Shown piece by piece: positions 5,456 through 55,238 of a stretch of 64,000 nucleotides of DNA. The notes beneath the pieces are model-generated. The model was given only the letters and a program-made list of their open reading frames with translations, made no database searches and was not told the origin of the DNA. Where the stretch lies: NCBI GenBank assembly GCA_001780275.1, contig MFGB01000020.1, forward strand, positions 168,813 to 232,812. Reading direction: 5' to 3'. The DNA comes from Candidatus Falkowbacteria bacterium RIFOXYA2_FULL_47_19. Its GTDB lineage: Bacteria; Patescibacteriota; Patescibacteriia; Patescibacteriales; UBA12075. Positions within the stretch are counted from its first letter, which is position 1; each line of letters begins with the position of its first letter. A program made the position numbers and the translations under genes.

Positions 5456-8140
5456 TCAGCGGGAAAATAATTTTTCAAAGTCATCGATTTTAGCGGCCGT
5501 TTTTTGGCGGTTATTTTTTTTCGCGTCCTTTTCGGCGGTCTGTTTATTCTCCCCGTCTTTTTTTTCTTCTTTTTCATCGTTTTCACCCTCTTCTTCATCA
5601 CTATCATCATCGCCGTTTTCTTCGTTTTCGTGCTCATTATTATTTTCTTCATCATCTTCTTCATCTTCTTTCGATTCCAGATCTTCTTCTTCGTTTTTGT
5701 CATTATTTTCCTCTTCCTCTTCCTTGAACACGACGTCATCGCGGCCTTCGTCATCTTCATCTTCGTTGTCGCCGTCTAAGTAGTTTTCCGGTACTTGCGC
5801 CTCCGCGCGGTTATGGAGGGCGACCCCGGAAACCCCCCGGCTTTCCATGGCGGCGTATTGTTCTTTGGTAATAAGGATCTCGCGCGGTTTGGCGCCGTTA
5901 ACCGGACCAACCACGCCGATTTTCTCCAGCTGGTCTAAAATACTGGCGGCACGGGCGTAACCGATGCGTAATTTGCGCTGCAGGAGAGAGGCTGAGGCTT
6001 TGCCCATGTTTATTATGATGTCCCTGGCCTCATGAAGCATGTCGTCATCGCCCTCGTTGCCGTCAAAACCAAAGCCGCCCGCGCCATGCGCGTTTTGCTT
6101 ATCGGTAATGCTGTCCACGTAGTTTGGCTGGCTGGCTTTTTTCTTTACATAGGCCACGATCTTTTTTATTTCATTATCGCTTACGTACGCCCCCTGCAAA
6201 CGGACCGGCTTGGATAATTCGGCGTTAAGGAAAAGCATGTCGCCGCGCCCCAGAAGTTTTTCGGCGCCGAGGGAATCGAGAATCGTCCGCGAATCTGTGC
6301 CGGAAGCCACTGAAAAAGCGACCCGGGCGGGCATATTGGCCTTGATAAGTCCGGTAATAACATCCACGCTCGGACGCTGGGTAGCCAGGACCAGATGGAT
6401 GCCTACTGCTCGGGCCATTTGCGCCAAACGGATCACGCCGGCCTCGATGTCGCGGGCGGCCGCGACCATAAGATCGGCTAACTCGTCGATGATAAAGATT
6501 ATATAAGGCATTTTAACGGCGGCGCTTTCGTTATAACCCTGGATATTCCTCTTGCCGTGTTTCGCGAGGATATCGAAGCGACGGTCCATTTCGTTTATGC
6601 ACCATTTAAGGGCGTTGATCGTTTTCGGCACTTCAGTGATAACCTCGGTCAATAAATAAGGGATCCCGTTGTACATCGGCAATTCGACGCGTTTAGGGTC
6701 GACCATGATGAATCGGAGGTTATCCGGATTATTCTGAAACATCAGGCTCACTATGATTGTATTCAGACACACCGATTTTCCGGAATTGGTCGCGCCCGCC
6801 ACAAGGAGATGCGGCATTTTCGTGATATCGTCCAGCCAGGAGCTTCCGGCGACGTCCTTGCCCAAAGCCAGCATTAAATTATTTTTTCTTTCTTTGTAAG
6901 CCTTAGCGGAGAGAACCTCTTTTAAGGAAACGATCGCTTTCGCCTGATTCGGGACCTCTACGCCGACTAAATGGCGGCCGGGGATCGGCGCCTCGATGCG
7001 GATGGGGTGCGCGGCCAGCGCGAGCGCCAGGTCGTTCGATAAATTCGTGATACGCGACAATTTGACCCCTTCTGCCGGACGGAATGTGTATTGCGTGACC
7101 GTTGGTCCGACGCTCACTTCGCCCATGTCCACGGTAATGCCGAAATTTTTTAAAGCTTTTTGGATGATGTCTTTGTTTTCATTAATATTGCCGCTGGTCG
7201 GTTTTTCTTTTTTATTATCAAGAAGACTTAGGGGTATGTTCATTTCTATATTAGTGGGCTTCCACCACACGTCATCAACCCCACTGTTTTTAAGGGGCGC
7301 GGCCTTAAAGGGGGTGGGTACCCCCTCCTCTTCTTCTTCATTTTCTTTTTCTTCTTCTTCTTCTTCTTCTTCTTCATTTTCTTCTTCCTCCTCCTCTTCT
7401 TCTTCATTTTCTTCTTCCTCTTCTTCTTCGCCCTCTTCCCCCTCCTCTTCTTCGCCCTCTTCTTCTTCTTCTTCTTCTTCGTCCTCTTCCTCTTCCTCCT
7501 TTTCTTCGCTCTCCTCTTTACCCCTTGATCCGAATAATTTTAATAATAAAAAGTTTAGCGGATAAAGCAGTTTAGCGATTAAACTTTCCCGGCCAAAAAG
7601 GCCCACCAGTGTCGTATTAAATAAAAGTAATAGGGAAATCACCAATAAGACGATAGACACTAAAAACGCGGCGATAAATCCCATAAGTTTCAATAATATT
7701 CCGGCTGGATAATAACCGACATAACCCCCGCCAAAGCCCTCCTTAAGACCGATCATCCATTGATCCGTCTCTACGAACAAAAAAAGCAAAGTATGAAAAG
7801 ACAGGACAAAAACAAACAGACCTAGATAATTTCCTCCTCGGATCTCGAATCTCTCTTCGTCATAAAGCATATATCCCCACCCCATAAGAATAACCGGAAT
7901 AAGCCATTTCCCCCAACCAAAAAGGGAGACTAGGCCGATTTTCAGGTATATCCCTAAAAGACCGGCTAAATCAAAAAGGCTTAAGGCTCCCAGGGCGCCT
8001 AAGGCCATGATCAATACGATGAAAATACCCTTTTTTGTATCCGGATCAAGCTCCAGCTCCGGCAGTCGGGGCAAGGAAATGTAATCCAGGATACTTCTTT
8101 TTCTGCGTCGCATAATTTTTACTACTAAAAAATAAGGCAA
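5456..8140 (-). CDS. ftsK: DNA translocase FtsK/SpoIIIE with poly-Glu linker and acidic C-terminal tail
   Basis: N-terminal TM helices; Walker A GATNSGKS; Walker B IIFIIDELADL; gamma winged-helix ASASLLQRKLRIGYARAASILDQLEKIGVVGP. Also has a ~65-aa E-rich linker and a ~130-aa D/E/N/K-rich tail after the gamma domain. Confidence 0.93.
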   Translation of the reverse strand: MPYFLVVKIMRRRKRSILDYISLPRLPELELDPDTKKGIFIVLIMALGALGALSLFDLAGLLGIYLKIGLVSLFGWGKWLIPVILMGWGYMLYDEERFEIRGGNYLGLFVFVLSFHTLLFLFVETDQWMIGLKEGFGGGYVGYYPAGILLKLMGFIAAFLVSIVLLVISLLLLFNTTLVGLFGRESLIAKLLYPLNFLLLKLFGSRGKEESEEKEEEEEDEEEEEEEEGEEEEGEEGEEEEEEENEEEEEEEEENEEEEEEEEEKENEEEEEGVPTPFKAAPLKNSGVDDVWWKPTNIEMNIPLSLLDNKKEKPTSGNINENKDIIQKALKNFGITVDMGEVSVGPTVTQYTFRPAEGVKLSRITNLSNDLALALAAHPIRIEAPIPGRHLVGVEVPNQAKAIVSLKEVLSAKAYKERKNNLMLALGKDVAGSSWLDDITKMPHLLVAGATNSGKSVCLNTIIVSLMFQNNPDNLRFIMVDPKRVELPMYNGIPYLLTEVITEVPKTINALKWCINEMDRRFDILAKHGKRNIQGYNESAAVKMPYIIFIIDELADLMVAAARDIEAGVIRLAQMARAVGIHLVLATQRPSVDVITGLIKANMPARVAFSVASGTDSRTILDSLGAEKLLGRGDMLFLNAELSKPVRLQGAYVSDNEIKKIVAYVKKKASQPNYVDSITDKQNAHGAGGFGFDGNEGDDDMLHEARDIIINMGKASASLLQRKLRIGYARAASILDQLEKIGVVGPVNGAKPREILITKEQYAAMESRGVSGVALHNRAEAQVPENYLDGDNEDEDDEGRDDVVFKEEEEENNDKNEEEDLESKEDEEDDEENNNEHENEENGDDDSDEEEGENDEKEEKKDGENKQTAEKDAKKNNRQKTAAKIDDFEKLFSR
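7325..7520 (-). repeat. GAA/GAG trinucleotide (poly-Glu codon) tract inside ftsK
   Basis: ~190 nt of near-uninterrupted ttc/ctc triplets on the plus strand. This generates the antisense poly-Ser shadow ORF 6996..7565. Confidence 0.9.
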
Positions 8141-8293
8141 ACCTTACCTTGTATTATAGAATTATTATAACATATTACGAAGACAAAAAAAATGTATTAT
8201 AAATATGCAAAATTTTGTTTTGTTAAGGTTTACTTTTTTTCTTGAAAAATTCACTATAATAAGCTATGATTTAGGAAAAGCAACTTGTTTTGT

Positions 8294-10096
8294 ATGAGTA
8301 TAGAAAAATCAAATGACCAAAAAAAAGCCGATAGCCACTTAAAGATCTGGGAAGACGAGATTTCGGGATCGATCAATCGAAGTTCCCGGGAAATAGGTAT
8401 TTACGACCGGACGAAAATCGAAGAAAAGATCAAGGGTTTAGCCCGGGAAACGGCCGATAAAAAAGAACTGGAATTTTTAGGGGTACTTAAAAGAGTAAGC
8501 CCCGAAGCCGGAGTCTATCTTGTTGGCGGTTCAGTCCGTGACGCGATCTTAGGTCGTAAATCAAAAGATATCGACTTGCTTATTAACCGGATCGACCCGG
8601 TCGGGGCCGTCGAAGTTTTATCACATTACGGCAAGGTCGTTTTCGACAAGAACCCTAATGCTGATTTGTCGGCTTTATCCCGCGAAGAAAAAGAAAAACT
8701 ACTCAAGGAAACATACGGAATCATAAAATTCCTGCCACGCGACTCCGAATCGGAAGAGCTTATTGATATCGGTTATCCGCGCTTAGACGATTATACCGAG
8801 GCCGGAAGATCCGGTATCAGCGGTATTAAAAATGACGCCGTTTCCATAACCGATCCGGATTTACCGATCGCGGAAGATTTAAAAAGGCGCGATCTGACCA
8901 TTAACGCGATTGCCGTCAATCTTTTAAACGGAGAAATAGTCGATCAACACGGCGGCATTGAGGACGTTATAAGGGGGCGTATCAGGGCCGTCGGAGATCC
9001 GGAAAGGATGCTTAAAGAAGATATGTCCCGCTGTTTTCGCGCCATCCGCTTCGCCTGCGTTTTTGGCGCGGATATAGAACCGGATTTAAAAAGAATAATC
9101 AGGAAAATATTCCGGCCGGCACTTAAGAGTTCGTCGGAAATATACGGGAATGAGCCGGAGAAGCTTAAAAAAATAAAAGCGTTGGAAGAAGATATCCGCT
9201 CTGAATTCGAGATAAGAACGGACAATCTTCCTCTTTGCCTACAGGTATTTTGGGATAAAACGCAGAATAAAGCCCGGATGGCCGTCGCCAAAGAAGTGAT
9301 GGGGGCGGAAATAATGAAAGCGATAAACGCGGACCCGGTCAAATTTACCGAGCTTATGGATGAAACCGGAGGCCTGGAGGTGATATTGCCAGAAGTGGCC
9401 CGGCTTAAGAACATAGCGCAATCCCCTGAACATCATCGGGAAGGGGATGTTTTCCGCCACACCATGATGGTTCTTAGAAACCTGCCGCTGGGCGCGTCTT
9501 TTAGGGTTAAGCTGGCCGCTCTTTGCCATGATCTGGGAAAGATCGAAACATGGAAAAAGAATGAGGATGGCAGTATTTCCTTTAAGGGCCATAATCGTCA
9601 AAGCGCCGTATTAGCGGAACGAGTGGCCGATCGGTTCAGGCTAAAAAAGAACCTGAAAGAAGACGTGCTTTGGCTGGTCCAAAACCACATGGAGCCGATC
9701 CTGGGTAATGTCAGGTCCATAAAGAACAACACGCTCGAGAAAAAGTTTTTGAAATCGGACGATTTGACGGACGACCTGATCACGCTCGCCCGCGCCGATT
9801 CTCTGGGATCGATCCCGGAAAGAGGCGCGCCGGACACGGAAAACGTCGACCATTTTGCCGCCCGGATAAATGAGCTAAGAAAAAAGCTTAGCGTTGTCGG
9901 ACGGAATACTCCCCCTATCGTAACCGGCGGCGAACTGTTAAAAATGGGATTCGAGCCCGGCCCCCGCATAAGAGAAATACTGGAGGCGGTCAGAGAAGAG
10001 CAGTTAAAAGGCGGAATCGATCAAAAAGATATTTCCCGCGAGTACATAGATGAGATCGTGGCAAAGAAAGATTCCGAAGATTTCATTAGCGCATGA
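8294..10096 (+). CDS. cca: CCA-adding enzyme / poly(A) polymerase-family tRNA nucleotidyltransferase with HD domain
   Basis: GGSVRDAILGRKSKDIDLL head motif, RRDLTINAIA, HD region HHREGDVFRHT...CHDLGK. ATG at 8294 preferred over the track's TTG at 8285. Long (~600 aa) with insertions. Confidence 0.85.
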   Translation: MSIEKSNDQKKADSHLKIWEDEISGSINRSSREIGIYDRTKIEEKIKGLARETADKKELEFLGVLKRVSPEAGVYLVGGSVRDAILGRKSKDIDLLINRIDPVGAVEVLSHYGKVVFDKNPNADLSALSREEKEKLLKETYGIIKFLPRDSESEELIDIGYPRLDDYTEAGRSGISGIKNDAVSITDPDLPIAEDLKRRDLTINAIAVNLLNGEIVDQHGGIEDVIRGRIRAVGDPERMLKEDMSRCFRAIRFACVFGADIEPDLKRIIRKIFRPALKSSSEIYGNEPEKLKKIKALEEDIRSEFEIRTDNLPLCLQVFWDKTQNKARMAVAKEVMGAEIMKAINADPVKFTELMDETGGLEVILPEVARLKNIAQSPEHHREGDVFRHTMMVLRNLPLGASFRVKLAALCHDLGKIETWKKNEDGSISFKGHNRQSAVLAERVADRFRLKKNLKEDVLWLVQNHMEPILGNVRSIKNNTLEKKFLKSDDLTDDLITLARADSLGSIPERGAPDTENVDHFAARINELRKKLSVVGRNTPPIVTGGELLKMGFEPGPRIREILEAVREEQLKGGIDQKDISREYIDEIVAKKDSEDFISA

Positions 10097-21049: not shown

Positions 21050-21367
21050 TTACTGGTGCGTCGCGCCGTGCAAGGCGGTAAAGACGAACTGCGTGATTCC
21101 GTAAGCGGAGAGGACGATGATAAGGCCGGTGGTCGCGTTAGTGAGCACCTGTTTCGCTTTATATATCTTCGGTTCGTTTCCGGCCGAGGTCATCCAGAGA
21201 TAGCCGCCGTAAATAATAAGGCAGAGGAAAATAATTCCGAGAAGCGACAAAAAAACGCCGATGATGGCGCCGATGATCTCAGGGATGCTTTTCGGATCGG
21301 CAAAACCCGCGGCCTTAGCCGTGGCTTCAAGATATTCGAAAATCTTGTTTCTCAAGTCGAAGTCCAT
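21050..21367 (-). CDS. TrbC/VirB2-like mini-pilin family protein (paralog 1)
   Basis: Two TM helices flank YGGYLWMTSAGNEPKIYKAKQVLTNATTGLIIVLSAYGI. The same signature appears in 38239..38643. Confidence 0.6.
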   Translation of the reverse strand: MDFDLRNKIFEYLEATAKAAGFADPKSIPEIIGAIIGVFLSLLGIIFLCLIIYGGYLWMTSAGNEPKIYKAKQVLTNATTGLIIVLSAYGITQFVFTALHGATHQ

Positions 21368-29547: not shown

Positions 29548-29880
29548 ATGGCTGCTGACAAAGCACAGGACCAGGATTTCCTGGAATTCGTAGTCAAATC
29601 CATCGTAGCCAATCCTAACGATGTCACTACGGAAAGAGTAGTAGATGAAAGAGGTGTTCTTTTATCGTTATCGATTAACCCGGCTGATATGGGTTATGTA
29701 ATCGGTCGCAGAGGTCAAACTGCGCAGGCCATACGCACTTTACTTAAAATCGTAGGTGCTAAAAACAACGCCCGGGTAAATTTAAAGATCAATGAACCCG
29801 AAGGATCACAAAGGCCGCCGCGTCGCGAACGCGCCACCGCTGAAGTCGATACTACCAGCGTTGACGACCTGAAGATTTAA
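29548..29880 (+). CDS. KH-domain RNA-binding protein (YlqC/UPF0109 family)
   Basis: [20 protein letters not shown] contains the GxxG KH motif. The position between rpsP and trmD is the conserved one. Confidence 0.85.
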
Positions 29881-38238: not shown

Positions 38239-38643
38239 ATGAAGAACAAATATATTAAGCGAACGATACTTCCCCTCTTTTTTTTCTCGTTCTTGTTTTT
38301 TTCGGTTTTTGCCGGTGGGGCGGAGGCTAACCTTATGGAGAACATCGCCTGCGCCGGGGACGGAAAATGCACGCCCGATGATTTTTTTCGGCTGGCGGTA
38401 AACGCGGCCAAATGGATATTAGGCATTACCGGCTCTCTGGCTTTGGGCGCTTTCGTCGTAGGCGGCGCCATGTTCCTGGTGTCGAGCGGCAACAGCGATA
38501 CGGTCAATAAGGGCAAACAGGTTTTGATCGGCGCGGTTATCGGGCTCGTCGTGGTTTTTGTAAGCTGGCTTATTGTCCAATTCGTTATGTTCAATATTTT
38601 GGGTTATAGATACGAGGGTACGGACGACTGGTTTAAACTTTAA
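38239..38643 (+). CDS. TrbC/VirB2-like mini-pilin family protein (paralog 2)
   Basis: Signal peptide, then VGGAMFLVSSGNSDTVNKGKQVLIGAVIGLVVVFVSWLIVQF, the same signature as 21050..21367. Confidence 0.6.
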   Translation: MKNKYIKRTILPLFFFSFLFFSVFAGGAEANLMENIACAGDGKCTPDDFFRLAVNAAKWILGITGSLALGAFVVGGAMFLVSSGNSDTVNKGKQVLIGAVIGLVVVFVSWLIVQFVMFNILGYRYEGTDDWFKL

Positions 38644-50002: not shown

Positions 50003-50026
50003 GAACGAGTTTTTAAGAATAATAAA

Positions 50027-50057
50027 AGAGGACCGCATGGCGCAGTCCTCGTTTTTT
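50027..50057. terminator. hairpin terminator between convergent genes
   Basis: GAGGAC...GTCCTC stem followed by GTTTTTT. Confidence 0.65.
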
Positions 50058-50068
50058 ATTTTCGATGT

Positions 50069-50263
50069 TTATTTGAAAAATTCCACCATCGCCTCGTCCG
50101 GTATGGCTCCGCAGTTAAAATCGAAAGACCGGTAAGTTATGCCGTTTACGGTCGCTCGTTCATAACGGGTGCGGTCTTTGATCAGCCGCTGTAGACGGGT
50201 TAAATTAAGGTTCGGTTCCCATTTTACTTTATTTTCGGTTTTATCCCTGATCACGGTGATCAT
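50069..50263 (-). CDS. ThiS/MoaD-like beta-grasp protein without C-terminal Gly-Gly (paralog 2)
   Basis: 64 aa. Alignable with the neighbouring 65-aa protein (MITV...W.P.L.L......VNG....DF....IPD.A). Ends ...VEFFK. GGAGGAG SD upstream. Confidence 0.45.
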   Translation of the reverse strand: MITVIRDKTENKVKWEPNLNLTRLQRLIKDRTRYERATVNGITYRSFDFNCGAIPDEAMVEFFK

Positions 50264-50283
50264 GGCCGACTCCTCCGCGACGT

Positions 50284-50481
50284 TCAGCCTCCGGCTATGG
50301 ACATAAGTTTTATAACGGCTCCGTCGGGTATTATGTGATTTTCGAAATCTTTCCTGGCTATTCCCCGGCCGTTCACGTAAATAAGTCCGACCGGAGCTAT
50401 GATCTTCAAATCCGTGAGCATTTGCTTCAGGCTTAAATCCGGCCGCCAGGGATAGTTCGCGCCTTCAACCGTGATCATCAT
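50284..50481 (-). CDS. ThiS/MoaD-like beta-grasp protein ending in Gly-Gly (paralog 1)
   Basis: 65 aa. Has the VNG....D..L.DGD/A-type pattern and a C-terminal ...SIAGG. Overlaps the aor stop by 17 nt. Confidence 0.55.
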   Translation of the reverse strand: MMITVEGANYPWRPDLSLKQMLTDLKIIAPVGLIYVNGRGIARKDFENHIIPDGAVIKLMSIAGG

Positions 50482-52771
50482 TTTTTTCTTTCCGGCGCGT
50501 TTTTTGGTAAGCTTGCCAGACCTCTTTCACGCCTGGAAGGTTGTAAAGTTTTAGGAGTTTCAGAGTCTTCAGGGTCGGCACGCCGTCGGGGTTATAACCG
50601 CGTTTTTTGTACACGACATTTTTCAGTTCTTCATAGGCGGAGATCCGATAACGCCGCAGTATTCCCACTTTTAGCCTGGTTTCGGTATTTTTCATGCTCA
50701 GAACCATGAATTCCGTAAAAGCCGCATCTACAGCTTCGGCTGAAGACAGATCCAGTTTATCGAAGTTCTTGATAAAGCGGGATGCGTTTTTCAATGATTC
50801 GGCTTTATCACAGGGCCACTCAGACGAAACCGCTTTTGCCAGATCATTATCATAATTTTCTTCGTCGTGCAGATACTCCTCGATTGTCGCCGGACCCATC
50901 GCCCGGTAGGGAATAGCGTCGTGCTGTCTCCGACCGTAACCCATGCGCAGATTAAAGAGGCGGTGGAAAGTATAGCCTTGGCGGCTATTCGCGAGTATTT
51001 CGTCAACGGTCATGTTCTTGCCGGTAACCGTGTTCCAAAGGTCGCGGTATCTTTCGACATGTCCCATGACCTTGGCCGGTTCCGCGCTTTGTTTGTTATC
51101 TGCCGGTTCGATATCGTTCCAGGGCAGTTTACATAGCCCGACCTTTTGGAACCAGTCGCGCCACTCGGCGAACCATCTGAGATAATCGGCCTTTTGCCGG
51201 AAGGACGGCATGCGGTTATGGATCATGTCCGAGAAGATATGCCAGCCTTCGTGGTGCTGGTTCTTGTTGGCGAGGCCGTAGCCGCCCTGCTGGGCGAGCG
51301 AGCGCTTGGTGATGTACATGGAAAATTCCATGCCCTTGCTTGCCATCGCGATATCGTTTATAAGAGCGGTCTGTTTTTCGCTTAGATTCCGGTCGGCGAT
51401 GATCGCCTGTTTCAGGCGTTCAACGCCTAAACCGGCCAAGCGTCCGAAGCCCTGTCCCTCGGCTATCAGGTGCAGTAGTGCCAGAGCCGCCCGTTCGTTG
51501 CCGAAGCACAGGTCTAGACCTTGGACATAGGCCGCGTCGATCAAGCCGTGTTCAAAACAATCCATGGCAAAACCGATGGTCACGCCGGCGGAGATCGTGT
51601 CGAGGCCGTAAGCGTCGCAATAAAGATTGAACTCGATGATCGCGTCCGGCGAAAAAATACCCTGAGTGGTGCAGGCGCCGATTGTCTCGTATTCAGGACC
51701 ATCCACGAAAAATTCTTTCCCGTGGAACGGTCCGGTCTTCGGGACAAAGCCCTTGATGCCGTGTGCGCAGGCCAGTTTGCATCCCTTCCAACAGCCGTCA
51801 AAACCTTTGTCAAAGCGCTTTTCAAAAACATCTTCGTAAAGACCGGCCGCATCCGGGTGGCTGCCCAGGGAAAAATTATTGACCGGCAGGCACTTGGCGT
51901 CGTTCATGTATTTGACGATGTGCGTCGTTCCGACAACGGACATCCGGTTCATCTTCGGATCGCGTTCGTCGATTTCGCGGTTATACCATTGAATGGTTTT
52001 TAGCAGGGCTTCGCGGTCAGCAGGATCATTGTCGCTTATTTTGAGGCTATCCCAGCGTCCGACGATGGCTTTGATATTTTTTTGCGCCATGACGGTGCCG
52101 TTGCCGTTCCGGCCCGCCTGCTTTAAACGATGCCGGCCGCGTTTAGCATCGTACCAGCTGATGTTAATGCAGCCGAAGTTGGAATTTTTTGCGCCCGGTC
52201 CGGTTGATACCACGGAAATATTTTCCGGGTGTTCAGGGTCAAAGAATTCCGCGAGTCCGGCGGTCAATCCGTAAGAATCATCAGGCAAACCCGAACACTC
52301 GTAAAATTCCAGGCGGCTATTCACGCCGTCGATAAAAATTACGGTTTCGCGGCTCGCGATTCCGGAAACTGCCATCGCGTCAAAGCCGGAAAATTTCATA
52401 AAAGCCCCGAAGTAGCCGCCGACATTGGAGTCTCCGGCCAGCCCGGATAAAGGAGAAATTGAAGTGACAATGCTTTTGCCGGCGCCGGGAAAACCGGGCG
52501 TTCCGCAAAGAGGACCGGAAGCGATACAAAGGGTGTTCTCCGGATCGTTCCATTTCGTCGGACCATCCGGATGCTCAATGCCGCGTACCGCCTCCCAAAG
52601 GAGCCAGAGATTAAAGCCGCTTCCGCCGATAAAGATATCCTTTATCTTTCCTGGATAGTCTTCAGAGCGGAGCGATAGGTCATCGAGCTTTATCTTGAGA
52701 AACCGATCGGTATACCCGTTCTTTACCGGTTGTCGGACATAAGGTTCGCTTTTTATCAGCTTTAACTCCAT
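50465..52771 (-). CDS. aor: aldehyde:ferredoxin oxidoreductase family (tungsto/molybdopterin) enzyme, long form (768 aa)
   Basis: AFOR N-terminal domain; GPEYETIGACT (EYET); CDAYGLDTISAG (DxxGLD pterin motif); Cys cluster GCWKGCKLAC; C-terminal KKRGYNPDGVPT. AAAGGAGGG SD upstream. Confidence 0.9.
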   Translation of the reverse strand: MELKLIKSEPYVRQPVKNGYTDRFLKIKLDDLSLRSEDYPGKIKDIFIGGSGFNLWLLWEAVRGIEHPDGPTKWNDPENTLCIASGPLCGTPGFPGAGKSIVTSISPLSGLAGDSNVGGYFGAFMKFSGFDAMAVSGIASRETVIFIDGVNSRLEFYECSGLPDDSYGLTAGLAEFFDPEHPENISVVSTGPGAKNSNFGCINISWYDAKRGRHRLKQAGRNGNGTVMAQKNIKAIVGRWDSLKISDNDPADREALLKTIQWYNREIDERDPKMNRMSVVGTTHIVKYMNDAKCLPVNNFSLGSHPDAAGLYEDVFEKRFDKGFDGCWKGCKLACAHGIKGFVPKTGPFHGKEFFVDGPEYETIGACTTQGIFSPDAIIEFNLYCDAYGLDTISAGVTIGFAMDCFEHGLIDAAYVQGLDLCFGNERAALALLHLIAEGQGFGRLAGLGVERLKQAIIADRNLSEKQTALINDIAMASKGMEFSMYITKRSLAQQGGYGLANKNQHHEGWHIFSDMIHNRMPSFRQKADYLRWFAEWRDWFQKVGLCKLPWNDIEPADNKQSAEPAKVMGHVERYRDLWNTVTGKNMTVDEILANSRQGYTFHRLFNLRMGYGRRQHDAIPYRAMGPATIEEYLHDEENYDNDLAKAVSSEWPCDKAESLKNASRFIKNFDKLDLSSAEAVDAAFTEFMVLSMKNTETRLKVGILRRYRISAYEELKNVVYKKRGYNPDGVPTLKTLKLLKLYNLPGVKEVWQAYQKTRRKEKNDDHG

Positions 52772-52832
52772 TTATCACCCTCCTTTTGATAAACAAGCCC
52801 CGGCTTAAGATGTCCAGGGCTTTTCATGTTTT

Positions 52833-54155
52833 TTATAGGCTTTTCTTGATAATCCGGATCGCTTCGTCCACATTCTCTTTGGTGAATGTGAGTGGAGGCC
52901 GGAAGCGGACAGAGTAGGTACCGCAGGATAAAGTAGCCAAACCGTTATCCCAGGCTTTGCGCCGGAATTCGTTCCGCGTCGCCGCGTCTTTGAAGTCAAA
53001 GGCGATCATAAGGCCGCGGCCGCGGATATTTTGAGCGTGCTTCGGGTCGTAAACCTCGGCGCGAAGCTTGTCCAGAAAATATTTACCGACCGTGGCCGCG
53101 TTGGCGACCAGATTGTCTTCGCAAATGATCTCGAGGTAGCGGGCTCCGCGCAGGAAATCCGCCAGATTCGCGCCCCAGGTGGAATTGATACGCCCGGACT
53201 TACGGAAGACGTTATCGGGAACTTCGTCCACGCGTTCGGTCGCCATAATCCCGCAAACCTGGGTTTTTTTTCCAAAAACCAGAATATCCGGTGTTACCCC
53301 GAAATGTTCGTAAGCCCACATCCTGCCGGTCAGGCCAACGCCGGTTTGCACCTCATCAAAAATCAGCATGATATCGTTGTCATCGCATTTTTGCCTTAGG
53401 GCTTTAAAAAAACAGGGACGGAAGTGGTTATCACCGCCTTCGCCCTGGATCGGTTCCAGGATGAGCGCCGCGATCTCCTGTCGCCGCATGGCTCGGTCGA
53501 TCTGGATCATTGCTTCCCGCTCGGCGCGTTGCACGCTAGTCGCGTTGCTTATCCGGCCGTCTTTGCCGAAACGAATTTTCGGGTTTGTGATCCTCGGCCA
53601 GTCAAATTTCGGAAAATATTCGGTTTTGACCGGATCGGTATTGGTTAGGGACAGGGTGTAGCCAAGGCGTCCGTGAAAGGCTTCTTTCAGATGCAATACG
53701 CCATATCCGGCCTTAGGAGGCAGGAAATTCGCATTCATCTCCTTGCGCGTCCGCCAGTCAAAAGCGACCTTTAAGGCATTACCGATTGCGGGTGCGCCGC
53801 CAGCTACAAAAAACATATATTTAAATTCTGCTGGTTTAGCGAACTCCGCGAAAGTTTTAACGGCCCAGGCGTATTCCGGACAGTAGATATCAGAGTTAGA
53901 CGGGTTGGCGATTGTGGCCCGAAACAAAGCTTTAAGAAAATCATCGTAAAACAGCTTGGGGTGGTTGTGTCCGATCGGCAAAGACGCGAAATAGCTATAA
54001 CAATCAAGTATTTCCTGACCGGTCACGGCATCAACTATATAGTTATCGTGGCTTTTGACGAGGTCAATCACGGTATGAAAACCGTCAACCAGTATATATT
54101 TTCCTAAGGTGTCCAAAACTTCCGCGGGCGGTATTTGGTATTTCACGTTTTCCAT
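52833..54155 (-). CDS. lat: L-lysine 6-transaminase (class-III PLP aminotransferase, LAT family)
   Basis: Blocks shared with characterised LAT: HGR.GYTLSLTNT, FPKFDWPRI, EPIQGEGGD.HFRP.FF, LIFDEVQTG.GLTG..WAY, FGKKTQVCG (PLP Lys), R.NSTWG.NL, RGRGLM.AF, VRFRPPLT. Confidence 0.9.
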   Translation of the reverse strand: MENVKYQIPPAEVLDTLGKYILVDGFHTVIDLVKSHDNYIVDAVTGQEILDCYSYFASLPIGHNHPKLFYDDFLKALFRATIANPSNSDIYCPEYAWAVKTFAEFAKPAEFKYMFFVAGGAPAIGNALKVAFDWRTRKEMNANFLPPKAGYGVLHLKEAFHGRLGYTLSLTNTDPVKTEYFPKFDWPRITNPKIRFGKDGRISNATSVQRAEREAMIQIDRAMRRQEIAALILEPIQGEGGDNHFRPCFFKALRQKCDDNDIMLIFDEVQTGVGLTGRMWAYEHFGVTPDILVFGKKTQVCGIMATERVDEVPDNVFRKSGRINSTWGANLADFLRGARYLEIICEDNLVANAATVGKYFLDKLRAEVYDPKHAQNIRGRGLMIAFDFKDAATRNEFRRKAWDNGLATLSCGTYSVRFRPPLTFTKENVDEAIRIIKKSL

Positions 54156-54243
54156 TTTTCCATCCTCTCTTTCCTTGCATGCAAAAACACCGAATTAATT
54201 TTCAAAGACCTTTTTAAAAAATTTTTATCTTAAATTTTCCCTT

Positions 54244-54272
54244 ATTTTATAATAATTACCCAGTCCCGTCAA
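54244..54272 (-). promoter_or_regulatory. promoter TTGACG-17-TAAAAT (minus strand) for the lat-aor operon
   Basis: -35 at 54272-54267 and -10 at 54249-54244. GAGGATGG SD before the ATG at 54155. Confidence 0.55.
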
Positions 54273-54284
54273 GATAAAAGTCAA

Positions 54285-54576
54285 ACAAAAAACCCCGGAT
54301 ATAAGGGTTTTGGCAAAAAGAAAAGATTGAGAGTTTTTTTGTTTGATTGAAGTTTGTTGATTTGTGTTGTTTGGGGTTTTAGGGGGTTTGGTGTTGTTTG
54401 GGGGATTTTTATGGTTTTGGGTAATGTCGGTGTTTTTTGGGTTTTTGAGGGTTGGTTTTTTGTTGGGGAAATAAGTTAAAGTACGTGGGTACGGTTCCAG
54501 TCTCTTAAAAGCGCAGAACCGTACCCGCGGACCTATTGTCTATTTCCTTTTCAAACTTCAATCTACTCTCAATCTT
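54285..54576 (-). ncRNA. candidate novel ~290-nt C/A-rich structured RNA
   Basis: Has its own promoter (54583-54610) and terminator (54289-54311). Two perfect 12-bp helices pair 54565-54576 with 54323-54334 and 54552-54563 with 54345-54356. A 13-bp hairpin lies at 54485-54528. A ~110-nt tract (54357-54468) has a single G on this strand. No ORF exceeds ~20 codons. Confidence 0.55.
54289..54311 (-). terminator. intrinsic terminator (minus strand) of the candidate RNA
   Basis: On the minus strand: AAAACCC-ttatatccg-GGGUUUU followed by UUGUUUG. Confidence 0.55.
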
Positions 54577-54582
54577 ACTATT

Positions 54583-54610
54583 AATATACTCTTGTTATTT
54601 ATATTGTCAA
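54583..54610 (-). promoter_or_regulatory. promoter TTGACA-16-TATATT (minus strand)
   Basis: -35 at 54610-54605 and -10 at 54588-54583. The predicted TSS (~54576) coincides with the first base of the 5' helix arm. Confidence 0.6.
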
Positions 54611-54686
54611 GAGACTAATATTAAATAAAAAAATACGAAAAAAATAAAATAATAAAAATAAATAAAAGTTATCCACAGGCCTGACG

Positions 54687-55238
54687 TTAATTTTGTTCTT
54701 TTATGCATTCTTCTGCCTGTTCACTGATCCGGCCGCCTAACTTATTAAGATTAATTCCATTTTTTTGTAAATTATGCAGTTTTTCTTTTAAAGCCTGTCT
54801 TATTAATTCGCCCTGTTCCATAATATCTCCAATAGACTCGCTTTTTTCTACGACCATAGCGGCTATTTCTTCTGCCAGATAGCCGATATAATCCTCTATA
54901 AGATTATCGGCCGGAAATTCACCTTTTTTGCTGATATAACTTTCAATCGCCTGTTTTTTGGCTAATTTAAATACCCGCCATCTTAATTCTTCCTGATCTT
55001 TTATAGTTTCTTCGTCCAGGCCCGCCAAAGAGTTTTCCATCTTAATAAAAATATCTTTTATGCCCTGATGCAGGCGATTATCATTAAGATCCATGAATCT
55101 ATCTAAGAGATTATTATGAAAAAATTGTTTTTTCAATATAAGATTGGCCAATTCATCGGTAGCGTTGGCTATTGCCGCTTTTATTTTTTCTTCGTCGCTT
55201 ATCTCTAATTTTCTTTCTTCGAATTTATTTTTAACCAT
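54687..55238 (-). CDS. hypothetical all-alpha/coiled-coil protein (AT-rich gene)
   Basis: 183-aa ORF, Glu/Lys/Ile/Asn-rich, no recognisable motif. Confidence 0.55.
   Translation of the reverse strand: MVKNKFEERKLEISDEEKIKAAIANATDELANLILKKQFFHNNLLDRFMDLNDNRLHQGIKDIFIKMENSLAGLDEETIKDQEELRWRVFKLAKKQAIESYISKKGEFPADNLIEDYIGYLAEEIAAMVVEKSESIGDIMEQGELIRQALKEKLHNLQKNGINLNKLGGRISEQAEECIKEQN

What the first reader, a model, noticed from the sequence alone, without database searches (positions are those of the whole stretch)
54285..54610. Stand-alone ~290-nt C/A-rich RNA gene closed by a perfect 12+12-bp terminal helix, just upstream of the lat-aor operon
The 530-nt gap between the stop of 54687..55238 and the lat start holds a complete minus-strand transcription unit. 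Its promoter is TTGACA-16-TATATT (54610-54583). The predicted TSS (~54576) is exactly the first base of a 5' arm, AAGAUUGAGAGU-a-GAUUGAAGUUUG. That arm pairs without mismatch to a 3' arm 200 nt downstream (54356-54345 and 54334-54323). Inside lie a 13-bp hairpin with an 18-nt loop (54485-54528) and a ~110-nt tract with a single G (54357-54468), built from CCCAAAA/CCCCAAAC-like units. On the plus strand this tract shows 7 runs of G3-5. The unit ends with a hairpin plus U-tract (54311-54289), immediately before the lat promoter. No ORF exceeds ~20 codons. I recognise no known RNA family here: SRP, tmRNA, RNase P, 6S and riboswitch signatures are all absent by eye. A long single-stranded C/A-rich loop held by a terminal helix resembles the design of protein-sponge RNAs. 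A cis role on the adjacent redox operon, G-quadruplex DNA on the plus strand, or a MITE-like element with terminal inverted repeats are alternatives.
Basis: seen in the sequence. Interest (0 to 1): 0.75.

Follow-up and report, generated by a model that had tools for sequence, protein, structure and literature searches.

The report
Clamped A/C-only non-coding RNA gene
A small group of uncultured groundwater bacteria (Candidatus Falkowbacteria) carries what looks like a previously undescribed non-coding RNA gene of about 280 nt, in which a strong helix holds open about 100 nt made almost only of A and C; its function is unknown.

Summary
Minus strand 54610-54285 holds a near-consensus promoter, a perfect 12+12-bp terminal helix, an ~80-nt hairpin, a 112-nt tract with one G, and a hairpin plus U-run. 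It folds far better than shuffles (z -7.8). It matches no Rfam family.

The window comes from Candidatus Falkowbacteria RIFOXYB2_FULL_47_14. I found the element in three further lineages, always between an orphan 183-aa gene and an L-lysine 6-transaminase/aor operon. Third codon positions have dropped to 52-67% identity, yet both promoter hexamers, the helices and the terminator stay nearly invariant. Promoter spacers and hairpin loops diverge. The tract diverges at a near-neutral rate with non-triplet indels, but stays about 53% A, 41% C, 0-2 G and 4-7 T.

So this is very probably a real, single-copy, clade-restricted RNA gene. It displays a segment selected for composition, which cannot pair with itself. 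My best guess is a decoy or platform for a single-strand RNA-binding factor. The tract meets published descriptors of a Rho loading site, but nothing identifies the partner.

G-quadruplex, curved DNA, MITE, known riboswitch, coding and 6S/Y/retron readings failed their tests. Covariation is not significant with four close sequences, and transcription is unproven.

The parts
54605..54610 (-). -35 hexamer TTGACA of the RNA promoter
   Evidence: Invariant in all four lineages.
54583..54588 (-). -10 hexamer TATATT. The spacer is 16 nt in all four lineages but diverges in sequence.
54611..54660 (-). T-rich stretch upstream of the -35 hexamer, possibly an UP element (inferred only)
   Evidence: Sequence. 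Partly conserved.
54552..54576 (-). 5' arm: AAGAUUGAGAGU, then A, then GAUUGAAGUUUG (P1a and P1b). It starts at the predicted TSS, about 7 nt after the -10 hexamer.
   Evidence: (I8, I9). Invariant in four lineages except the first base.
54467..54547 (-). Long imperfect hairpin. P2 is 54547-54540 paired with 54474-54467. P3 is 54534-54509 paired with 54504-54479. It has two conserved 1x1 mismatches and a variable apex.
   Evidence: All variable pairs lie here: 6 wobble-type changes and one CG-to-UA double change.
54357..54468 (-). A/C-only tract: A 59, C 45, G 1, T 7. It forms the large single-stranded 3' side of the internal loop.
   Evidence: Composition is conserved while the sequence is only 48% identical to L087. 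Differences are mostly A/C exchanges.
54323..54356 (-). 3' arm: CAAACUUCAAUC (54356-54345), an A-rich 10-nt internal loop (54344-54335), then ACUCUCAAUCUU (54334-54323)
   Evidence: I8, I9. Both helical parts are invariant; the A-rich loop varies in length.
54312..54322 (-). Invariant pyrimidine-rich single-stranded spacer UUCUUUUUGCC
   Evidence: 100% identical in four lineages.
54285..54311 (-). Terminator-like hairpin AAAACCCU/GGGGUUUU followed by a U-run. The G-C core is weak.
   Evidence: The stem is conserved and the loop varies.
54244..54272 (-). Separate promoter for lat: TTGACG-17-TAAAAT
   Evidence: The hexamers and the 17-nt spacing are conserved while the spacer diverges.
52833..54155 (-). 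lat, L-lysine 6-transaminase (context, downstream)
   Evidence: TIGR03251 scores 551 bits against a cut-off of 520.8.
50465..52771 (-). aor, aldehyde:ferredoxin oxidoreductase (context)
   Evidence: Pfam AFOR_N and AFOR_C.
54687..55238 (-). Orphan 183-aa alpha-helical protein gene directly upstream on the same strand. It is found only in the lineages that carry the RNA.
   Evidence: Only 3 protein clusters among 5.8 billion. No solid Pfam or NCBIfam hit. AF2 pLDDT 50.7.

Best explanation
This is an independently transcribed, clade-specific non-coding RNA of about 275-292 nt. The steps below are marked as shown or inferred.

Partly shown, by a conservation footprint:
- A strong sigma-70-type promoter starts the transcript at the first base of the 5' arm.

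Shown by energy and conservation, not by covariation:
- The RNA folds into a rigid scaffold. This is a 12+12-bp terminal helix joining the 5' and 3' ends, plus an ~80-nt hairpin.
- The scaffold closes a highly asymmetric internal loop whose 3' strand is about 100 nt of A and C only.

Shown:
- A and C cannot pair with each other, so this strand cannot fold on itself.
- Selection keeps its composition and roughly its length (96-112 nt), but not its sequence.

Inferred:
- The paired ends and the 3' hairpin stabilise the RNA.
- The open A/C strand is displayed as a low-specificity, multivalent binding platform or decoy for a single-strand RNA-binding factor that prefers C/A-rich, G-poor RNA.
- The leading candidate is termination factor Rho, because the tract meets the published sequence descriptors of a Rho loading (rut) site. 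KH-domain (KhpA/B), Hfq-like or cold-shock proteins are alternatives.
- Its fixed position between an orphan gene and the horizontally acquired lysine-catabolic lat-aor operon suggests it belongs to that island's regulation.
For: Existence as an RNA gene:
- Promoter and terminator predictions.
- Fold z-scores of -7.8 (window) and -9.6 (L087) on the minus strand, against -2.3 and -5.2 on the plus strand.
- Four orthologues: the window, L007, L098 and L087 (with identical copies in L088 and L097), all in the same place.
- Between the window and L087, third codon positions are 52-67% identical. The arms are 96-97%, the hairpin stems 92-94% and the spacer 100% identical.
- The -35 and -10 hexamers and the spacer length are invariant while the spacer sequence diverges.
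- 98.8% of pair cells stay paired, against 29-54% when the partners are slid by 1-3 columns.
- Paired columns vary less than unpaired non-tract columns: 12 of 126 against 19 of 61, Fisher p = 6e-4.
- Stem changes are G-U to A-U or G-C exchanges plus one CG-to-UA double change. They preserve pairing only on the minus-strand RNA.

Display-platform reading:
- The tract is A 52-59, C 40-45, G 0-2, T 4-7 in all four lineages. It is only 48% identical between the window and L087 and carries non-triplet indels.
- 26 of 37 differences between the window and L087 are A/C exchanges (p = 5e-6 against a 2/3 expectation of G/T involvement).

Rho reading:
- C exceeds G in more than 170 consecutive 78-nt windows, with a maximum C minus G of 40-44%. 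Chains of (YC)N9-13 reach n >= 5 in every lineage.
- The published criteria are a C>G bubble of at least ~80 nt, a (YC)N9-13 chain of at least 4, and 60-80 nt of single-stranded RNA (PMC6144790).
Against: - No expression data exist. The transcript, its ends and its abundance are all inferred.
- Covariation is not statistically significant. There is one double change, and 90-122 of 500 shuffles do as well. The 24-bp terminal helix never varies, so its conservation alone does not prove pairing.
- No binding partner is identified. Whether this genome encodes Rho or Hfq was not testable here. Only khpA was seen in the window.
- A rut-like composition is common and is not sufficient for Rho action (PMC6144790).
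- The terminator is weak, so the unit could read through into lat.
- The RNA is known from only four closely related lineages.
Confidence: 0.4

Rival explanations
1. The unit is a cis-acting leader or insulator of the lat-aor operon. Transcription from the upstream promoter runs through the structured region. The naked A/C tract loads Rho, or the weak hairpin plus U-run terminates. The unit would then set or block read-through into lat, rather than produce a trans-acting RNA.
For: - It lies on the same strand, 134 nt upstream of lat, in all four lineages.
- The terminator has only 3 G-C pairs and one G-U pair. The canonical G+C-rich terminator after the aor cluster is much stronger.
- The tract is rut-like.
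- No terminator is evident between the 183-aa gene and the unit.
Against: - lat has its own promoter with a clear conservation footprint.
- The lat 5' UTR diverges strongly in L098 while the RNA does not.
- There is no leader peptide and no ORF.
- No match to lysine, Moco or any other riboswitch model, even at E up to 10.
- Long perfect helices are unlike aptamers.
- I found no conserved alternative pairing that could act as an antiterminator. The I7 pairing is not conserved.
Confidence: 0.2
2. The unit is a trans-acting base-pairing sRNA. C-runs in the open tract, or the invariant CU-rich spacer next to the terminator, would pair with G-rich or purine-rich ribosome-binding sites, in the manner of C-rich-motif sRNAs of Firmicutes.
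For: - Every lineage keeps 5-7 runs of three or more C in an unpaired context.
- The single-stranded spacer UUCUUUUUGCC is invariant. By my manual pairing, it can form about 12-13 bp, including G-U pairs, with the purine-rich SD region of lat.
Against: - The tract sequence and the positions of the C-runs are not conserved, which is unlike seed regions.
- The one 11-nt perfect match between the tract and the lat 5' UTR (UCGGUGUUUUU) is lost in L007 and L087.
- Pyrimidine-to-purine-rich complementarity is non-specific.
- U is avoided in the tract, so it does not mimic the anti-SD sequence CCUCC.
Confidence: 0.12
3. The feature acts at the DNA level, not as RNA. In one version, the four GATTGA/TCAATC repeats are operator sites for a looping regulator. 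In another, they are inverted repeats of an invertible segment or a fossil MITE, and the G/T-rich strand forms a G-quadruplex or curved DNA that affects the lat promoter.
For: - The arm sequences are invariant, with no compensatory change.
- Each arm holds two copies of a GATTGA core, spaced 11 and 22 bp apart (sequence).
- The repeats lie upstream of the lat promoter.
Against: - There is no 10-11-bp phasing of A-runs in any lineage.
- There is no canonical G4 motif with loops of 12 nt or less in any lineage.
- The motif occurs nowhere else in the window.
- The 5' arm occurs once in the window. A scan with 23 nt of it gave one contig in metagenome contigs and none in viral contigs. No phage or plasmid matches.
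- I see no target-site duplication in the flanking sequence.
- All four lineages, and the separately assembled contigs of each, show the same orientation.
- No recombinase, transposase or reverse transcriptase in the 64-kb window.
- This reading does not explain the strand-specific A/C composition, the G-U wobble substitutions, or the promoter and terminator footprints.
Confidence: 0.08

Closest known systems
Protein-sequestering sRNAs (CrcZ/CrcY binding Hfq-Crc; CsrB/RsmZ binding CsrA)
   Same: A stand-alone, promoter-to-terminator non-coding RNA that displays many degenerate single-stranded motifs. The composition or motif content is conserved more than the exact sequence. CrcZ uses A-rich 'AAnAAnAA' motifs (my own knowledge).
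   Different: There is no sequence or structure match. The CrcZ hit scores 10 bits against a gathering score of 95, on the wrong strand and outside the RNA. Here the motifs sit in one continuous ~100-nt A/C-only strand clamped by a 24-bp end-to-end helix, not in hairpin loops. The partner is unknown. The host is a CPR bacterium.
Rho utilisation (rut) sites
   Same: C-rich, G-poor, unstructured RNA of at least 80 nt with suitably spaced YC dimers. All the published sequence descriptors are met in all four lineages.
   Different: rut sites are parts of nascent mRNAs or leaders, not clamped loops inside a dedicated small RNA that also has an intrinsic terminator. Rho dependence, and even the presence of rho in this genome, is untested.
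6S RNA
   Same: The topology is similar: a closing stem formed by the 5' and 3' ends, a large internal loop and an internal stem-loop. It also has a strong promoter and a length of 200-300 nt.
   Different: No 6S model matches, even at E up to 10. The loop is extremely asymmetric: 4 nt on the 5' side and about 110 nt on the 3' side. It is A/C-only, not a mimic of an open promoter.
Y RNAs (Ro60/Rsr-associated)
   Same: A terminal helix formed by the 5' and 3' ends closes a large, pyrimidine-containing loop.
   Different: No Rfam Y RNA or YrlA match. No TROVE/Rsr gene among the ORFs I scanned in the window. There is no tRNA-like module.
C-rich-motif sRNAs of Firmicutes (RsaE/RoxS type)
   Same: Unpaired C-runs that could pair with G-rich Shine-Dalgarno regions.
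   Different: Those RNAs have 2-3 precisely conserved C-rich motifs in about 100 nt. Here the positions of the C-runs drift, and no Rfam match exists.
Retron msr-msd and DRT2 template ncRNAs
   Same: Terminal inverted repeats bring the two ends of a ~200-nt internal segment together.
   Different: No reverse transcriptase gene adjacent or anywhere in the window. The internal segment is unstructured rather than a long msd hairpin.

Membership tests
Any Rfam 15 family (4227 models) | A covariance-model score at or above the family's gathering score | tested here: not met
   No hits in the whole window at gathering scores. At E up to 10 on 54150-54750, the best hit is 20 bits against a gathering score of 68, and all hits are unrelated miRNA or sRNA models.
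Lysine riboswitch / Moco-Tuco riboswitch (suggested by the lat-aor context) | A match to the aptamer model (RF00168, RF01055) | tested here: not met
   Neither model appears, even at E up to 10.
6S RNA | A match to a 6S covariance model, with a roughly symmetric central bubble that mimics an open promoter | tested here: not met
   No 6S model hit. The internal loop is 4 nt on one side and about 110 nt on the other.
6S RNA | Binding to RNA polymerase holoenzyme and synthesis of product RNA (pRNA) | not testable with these tools
   This needs biochemistry.
Rho utilisation site | A C>G bubble of at least ~80 nt, a chain of at least four YC dimers with 9-13-nt linkers, and low secondary structure | tested here: met
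   C exceeds G in more than 170 consecutive 78-nt windows. YC chains reach n = 5-8 within the tract. The tract is unpaired in the MFE and consensus folds. Criteria are taken from PMC6144790.
Rho utilisation site | Rho encoded in the genome, and Rho-dependent binding, ATPase activation or termination | not testable with these tools
   Only 64 kb of the genome is available and no rho gene lies in it.
Protein-sponge sRNA | A stand-alone transcript with several single-stranded copies of a binding motif | tested here: inconclusive
   A stand-alone unit is supported by the promoter and terminator footprints. The tract holds 11-12 C-runs of 2 or more and 21-27 YC dimers. No defined motif or partner is known.
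MITE / transposon remnant | Several dispersed copies with terminal inverted repeats and target-site duplications | tested here: not met
   One copy in the window. One contig in metagenome contigs and none in viral contigs. nhmmer finds only the orthologues in 685 kb. The position is orthologous in four lineages. No direct repeat flanks the arms.
Invertible promoter segment | Both orientations seen, with a recombinase gene nearby | tested here: not met
   All four lineages, and the separately assembled contigs of each, show the same orientation. There is no recombinase in the window. Read-level data were not available.
G-quadruplex-forming DNA | Four G3+ runs separated by short loops (7 nt or less, or a relaxed 12 nt or less), conserved across lineages | tested here: not met
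   No such motif in any of the three lineages tested. The number of G-runs drops from 7 to 5.
Retron / DRT template RNA | An adjacent reverse transcriptase gene | tested here: not met
   The neighbours are an orphan helical protein and lat. No RT domain in the window.
Protein-coding gene | A conserved open reading frame with triplet indels | tested here: not met
   No minus-strand ORF of 20 aa or more. The plus-strand ORFs of 36 and 41 aa are composition artefacts. Indels of +1, +1, -12, -2 and +1 separate the window from L007.

The most novel reading that the evidence does not exclude
The RNA is a dedicated, genomically encoded decoy for transcription termination factor Rho, or for another global C/A-preferring single-strand RNA-binding protein. 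It would be a stabilised 'rut site in a clamp' that titrates the factor and so tunes termination or RNA metabolism in a genome-reduced CPR bacterium. This would be the first RNA-based antagonist of that factor, and the first regulatory RNA with an assigned function in Patescibacteria.
Probability: 0.12. Interest if true: 0.8.

Novelty: new variant of a known kind. Interest (0 to 1): 0.45.

Why it matters
- As far as I know, and my literature searches found nothing, regulatory RNAs of Candidate Phyla Radiation bacteria are essentially uncharted. If transcribed, this would be a clean, testable example.
- The design principle is unusual. About 100 nt are kept A/C-only, and so unable to fold on themselves, by selection on composition alone, and are held between paired ends.
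- If the partner proves to be Rho or another global RNA-binding protein, it would show a new way of titrating such a factor.
- Its fixed link to a horizontally acquired lysine-to-aminoadipate (lat-aor) island could show how a minimal genome regulates an acquired catabolic module without any recognisable transcription factor.
- The limits are real. It is known from four closely related lineages, with no expression data and no identified partner.

Tried and rejected
1. Rfam at gathering and at permissive thresholds: nothing. tRNA and tmRNA scan: nothing.
2. Phage and plasmid BLAST, and a viral-contig pattern scan: nothing.
3. Metagenome scan with 23 nt of the 5' arm: only the L087 contig. The collection evidently lacks the window's own species, so absence there is weak evidence.
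4. Eighty lat loci from other phyla: no homologue by BLAST or nhmmer, and no A/C tract. The RNA did not arrive with recognisable lat neighbours.
5. Relatives with 53-57% hydrolase identity (L093-L096) lack the island and the RNA.
6. A second extreme C-rich tract at 7317-7480 is a poly-Glu coding stretch of FtsK, not a paralogue.
7. An 11-nt complementarity between the tract and the lat 5' UTR is not conserved.
8. A 12-nt complementarity between the A-rich loop of the 3' arm and the terminator U-run (I7) is only partly kept in L007 and L098.
9. DNA curvature: no 10-11-nt periodicity.
10. G-quadruplex: no canonical motif.
11. AlphaFold of the neighbouring orphan protein gave pLDDT 50.7, too poor for a fold search.
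12. A look-up of protein P0002, a probable fifth lineage, found no contig.
13. Literature searches for CPR ncRNAs, Rho sponges and Rho in CPR found nothing specific.
14. I did not build a covariance model. No further collection could be searched with it, and nhmmer already covered all the sequence I held.

Full report
**1.

Reading the minus strand and the mechanical scans confirm every element.
- The promoter is TTGACA-16-TATATT at 54610-54583, matching 11 of 12 consensus positions.
- The 5' arm is AAGAUUGAGAGU-A-GAUUGAAGUUUG at 54576-54552. Its two halves are perfectly complementary to 54334-54323 and 54356-54345 (I8 and I9).
- The hairpin lies at 54485-54528 (I3).
- The tract at 54468-54357 has A 59, C 45, G 1, T 7.
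- A hairpin plus U-run lies at 54311-54289.

Folded as RNA, the 292-nt unit reaches -67.7 kcal/mol against -37.7 +/- 3.8 for dinucleotide shuffles (z -7.8, 0 of 200 shuffles as good).

The fold adds two details.
An 8-bp P2 and a 23-pair P3 with two 1x1 mismatches and a small apical stem span 54547-54467.
- The overall topology is closing helix, then 4 nt, then a long hairpin, then ~110 nt of single strand, then the closing helix again.

The 531-nt gap is the largest in the window. No other stretch of at least 80 nt that is at least 90% A+C occurs in the window or in about 620 kb of other loci. A second C-rich extreme, at 7317-7480, is a poly-Glu coding stretch in FtsK.

**2. Source and relatives**

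The flanking 183-aa protein is identical to a protein of Candidatus Falkowbacteria bacterium RIFOXYB2_FULL_47_14 (GCA_001778165.1, contig MFGG01000008.1). This is a Candidate Phyla Radiation (Patescibacteria) bacterium from groundwater.

I recovered orthologous loci through the neighbouring proteins.
- L007: a Falkowbacteria MAG with lat 91% identical.
- L098: a Logan assembly with lat 84% identical.
- L087, with identical copies in L088 and L097: JGI and ENA contigs.

The order in all of them is orphan gene, then the element, then lat, then aor.

The next-closest relatives lack the island.
- Contigs with 53-57% hydrolase identity have neither the island nor the RNA.
- The nearest lat homologues outside the clade are 60% identical or less. 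They sit in Acidobacteriota, Gemmatimonadota and other phyla, with no similar upstream element.

The orphan gene, the RNA, lat, aor and a ThiS-like ORF (two in the window) therefore form an island specific to this small clade. lat is L-lysine 6-transaminase (TIGR03251, above its cut-off). With aor, the operon plausibly oxidises lysine-derived aminoadipate semialdehyde. That last step is my inference from the known enzyme families.

**3. The conservation pattern**

Between the window and L087, third codon positions of four flanking genes are only 52-67% identical.

| Region (window vs L087) | Identity |
|---|---|
| 5' arm | 96% |
| 3' arm including its internal loop | 97% |
| Hairpin stems | 92-94% |
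| Spacer before the terminator | 100% |
| Terminator | 82% |
| Hairpin apex | 43% |
| A/C tract | 48% |

The RNA promoter shows a textbook footprint. TTGACA, TATATT and the 16-nt spacing are invariant in four lineages, while the spacer sequence changes. The lat promoter behaves the same way: TTGAC[G/A]-17-TAAAAT. So lat has its own start. The lat 5' UTR is much less conserved in L098 than the RNA is.

**4. Structure**

The consensus fold is the same in all four sequences, with 63 pairs and 98.8% of cells paired. When the partners are slid by 1-3 columns, only 29-54% are paired.

Paired columns vary less than unpaired non-tract columns: 12 of 126 against 19 of 61, Fisher p = 6e-4.

The changes that do fall in stems are nearly all wobble exchanges (U-G to U-A or C-G, G-U to G-C, G-C to G-U), plus one CG-to-UA double change. 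On the opposite strand these would be A-C mismatches. The plus strand also folds less distinctively (z -2.3 and -5.2, against -7.8 and -9.6). This points to selection on the minus-strand RNA.

Formal covariation is not significant, however. There is one compensatory pair, and 90-122 of 500 shuffles do as well. The two terminal helices never vary, which says nothing for or against their pairing. From my own knowledge, near-complete sequence conservation is also usual for sRNAs between related genera whose synonymous sites are near saturation. I therefore do not read the invariant arms as evidence for a DNA site.

**5. The A/C tract**

Its length is 112, 100, 101 and 96 nt in the four lineages. 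Its composition is A 52-59, C 40-45, G 0-2 and T 4-7. The sequence itself drifts at about the synonymous rate, with indels that are not multiples of three.

Of the 37 aligned differences between the window and L087, 26 are A/C exchanges. About two thirds should involve G or T if substitution were unconstrained (p = 5e-6). The alignment of two-letter sequence is uncertain, so the composition counts are the sturdier evidence.

Selection therefore maintains an A/C-only strand that cannot pair with itself, and it does not maintain any particular sequence.

**6. Alternatives I tested**

- G-quadruplex: no lineage has four G3+ runs with loops of 12 nt or less, and the run number falls from 7 to 5.
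- Curved DNA: no 10-11-nt periodicity of A.
- MITE: single copy, orthologous position, no target-site duplication.
- Invertible segment: the same orientation in every assembly, and no recombinase in the window.
- Retron- or DRT-like template: no reverse transcriptase in the window (same calls).
- Coding: no conserved ORF.
- Known RNA families, including lysine and Moco riboswitches, 6S and Y RNA: no hit.
- Base-pairing to the lat 5' UTR: an 11-nt match exists in the window but is lost in relatives.

**7. Most likely mechanism**

What is shown is a conserved promoter-to-terminator unit. Its product folds into a clamp that displays about 100 nt of obligatorily single-stranded A/C RNA under compositional selection.

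What is inferred is that it acts as a platform or decoy for a single-strand RNA-binding factor. The tract meets the published sequence descriptors of a Rho loading site. Those are a C>G bubble of at least 80 nt, (YC)N9-13 chains of at least 4, and low structure (PMC6144790; computed). Rho is therefore my lead candidate. KhpA (encoded at 29548-29880), Hfq-like and cold-shock proteins remain possible.

I put about 0.8 on 'real RNA gene'. I put about 0.4 on that statement together with the broad display-platform or decoy reading. Of that, about 0.12 goes to a dedicated decoy for Rho or another global single-strand RNA-binding factor.

The main rival (0.2) is a cis-acting leader or insulator for lat-aor, given the weak terminator. 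A base-pairing sRNA (0.12) and DNA-level roles (0.08) follow.

**8. Novelty and verdict**

No described family matches. The kind of thing, a stand-alone bacterial regulatory or sponge-type RNA, is known. The architecture is unusual: an A/C-only strand clamped end to end and selected for composition. The host, a CPR bacterium, is also unusual.

The RNA is restricted to four close lineages, with no expression data and no partner. Interest is moderate.

Noticed in passing
window 50003-54155 and 54687-55238; L007, L087, L098: The orphan gene, the RNA, lat, aor and the small ORFs form an island found only in this small Falkowbacteria clade. The nearest lat homologues outside it are 60% identical or less, in Acidobacteriota, Gemmatimonadota and other phyla. 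Relatives with 53-57% hydrolase identity keep the hydrolase-SHMT-FolD-RecQ backbone but lack the island. This suggests a CPR bacterium acquired a lysine-oxidising module horizontally.
   Followed up: partly
window 50478-50284 and 50262-50068 (minus strand): Two ORFs of about 64 aa lie directly after aor. The first overlaps the aor stop codon and ends in Gly-Gly, which looks like a ThiS/MoaD-type beta-grasp protein. L098 has a 64-aa gene called in the same place. A strong G+C-rich terminator follows at about 50050-50020. My ORF filter had listed this stretch as a 462-nt 'gap'.
   Followed up: partly
window 54687-55238 (minus strand): An orphan, fully alpha-helical 183-aa protein with only three clusters among 5.8 billion proteins. 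It has no family hit above any cut-off, and its AlphaFold model is poor (pLDDT 50.7). It always sits directly upstream of the RNA on the same strand, with no obvious terminator between them. It could be the RNA's partner, or the RNA could partly derive from its 3' UTR.
   Followed up: partly
L087 1098-1412 (plus strand of the locus, antisense to the RNA): The JGI annotation calls a 104-aa gene exactly antisense to the RNA. A G/T-only strand cannot contain a stop codon, so this is almost certainly a spurious call. The window has 41-aa and 36-aa counterparts at 54354-54479 and 54364-54474.
   Followed up: yes
window 7317-7480: An extreme C/T-rich tract on the plus strand. It encodes a long acidic, poly-Glu-rich low-complexity linker within an 894-aa FtsK/SpoIIIE protein (5456-8140, minus strand).
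   Followed up: yes
window 8285-10096 (plus strand): A 603-aa protein with a poly(A) polymerase/CCA-adding head domain plus an HD domain. It is noted only because such enzymes make A/C-only tails. There is no evidence of a link to the DNA-encoded A/C tract.
   Followed up: no
window 29548-29880 (plus strand): A KhpA-type KH-domain RNA-binding protein in the conserved rpsP-khpA-trmD neighbourhood. It is one possible binder of C-rich single-stranded RNA in this organism.
   Followed up: no
window 21050-21367 (minus strand) and 38239-38643 (plus strand): Two small proteins with type IV secretion system pilin-like domains.
   Followed up: no
window 54335-54346 and 54281-54292: A perfect 12-nt complementarity between the A-rich internal loop of the 3' arm and the terminator U-run and its tail. 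It would form a pseudoknot or an alternative pairing. It is only partly kept in L007 and L098, so it is probably A-run/U-run chance.
   Followed up: yes
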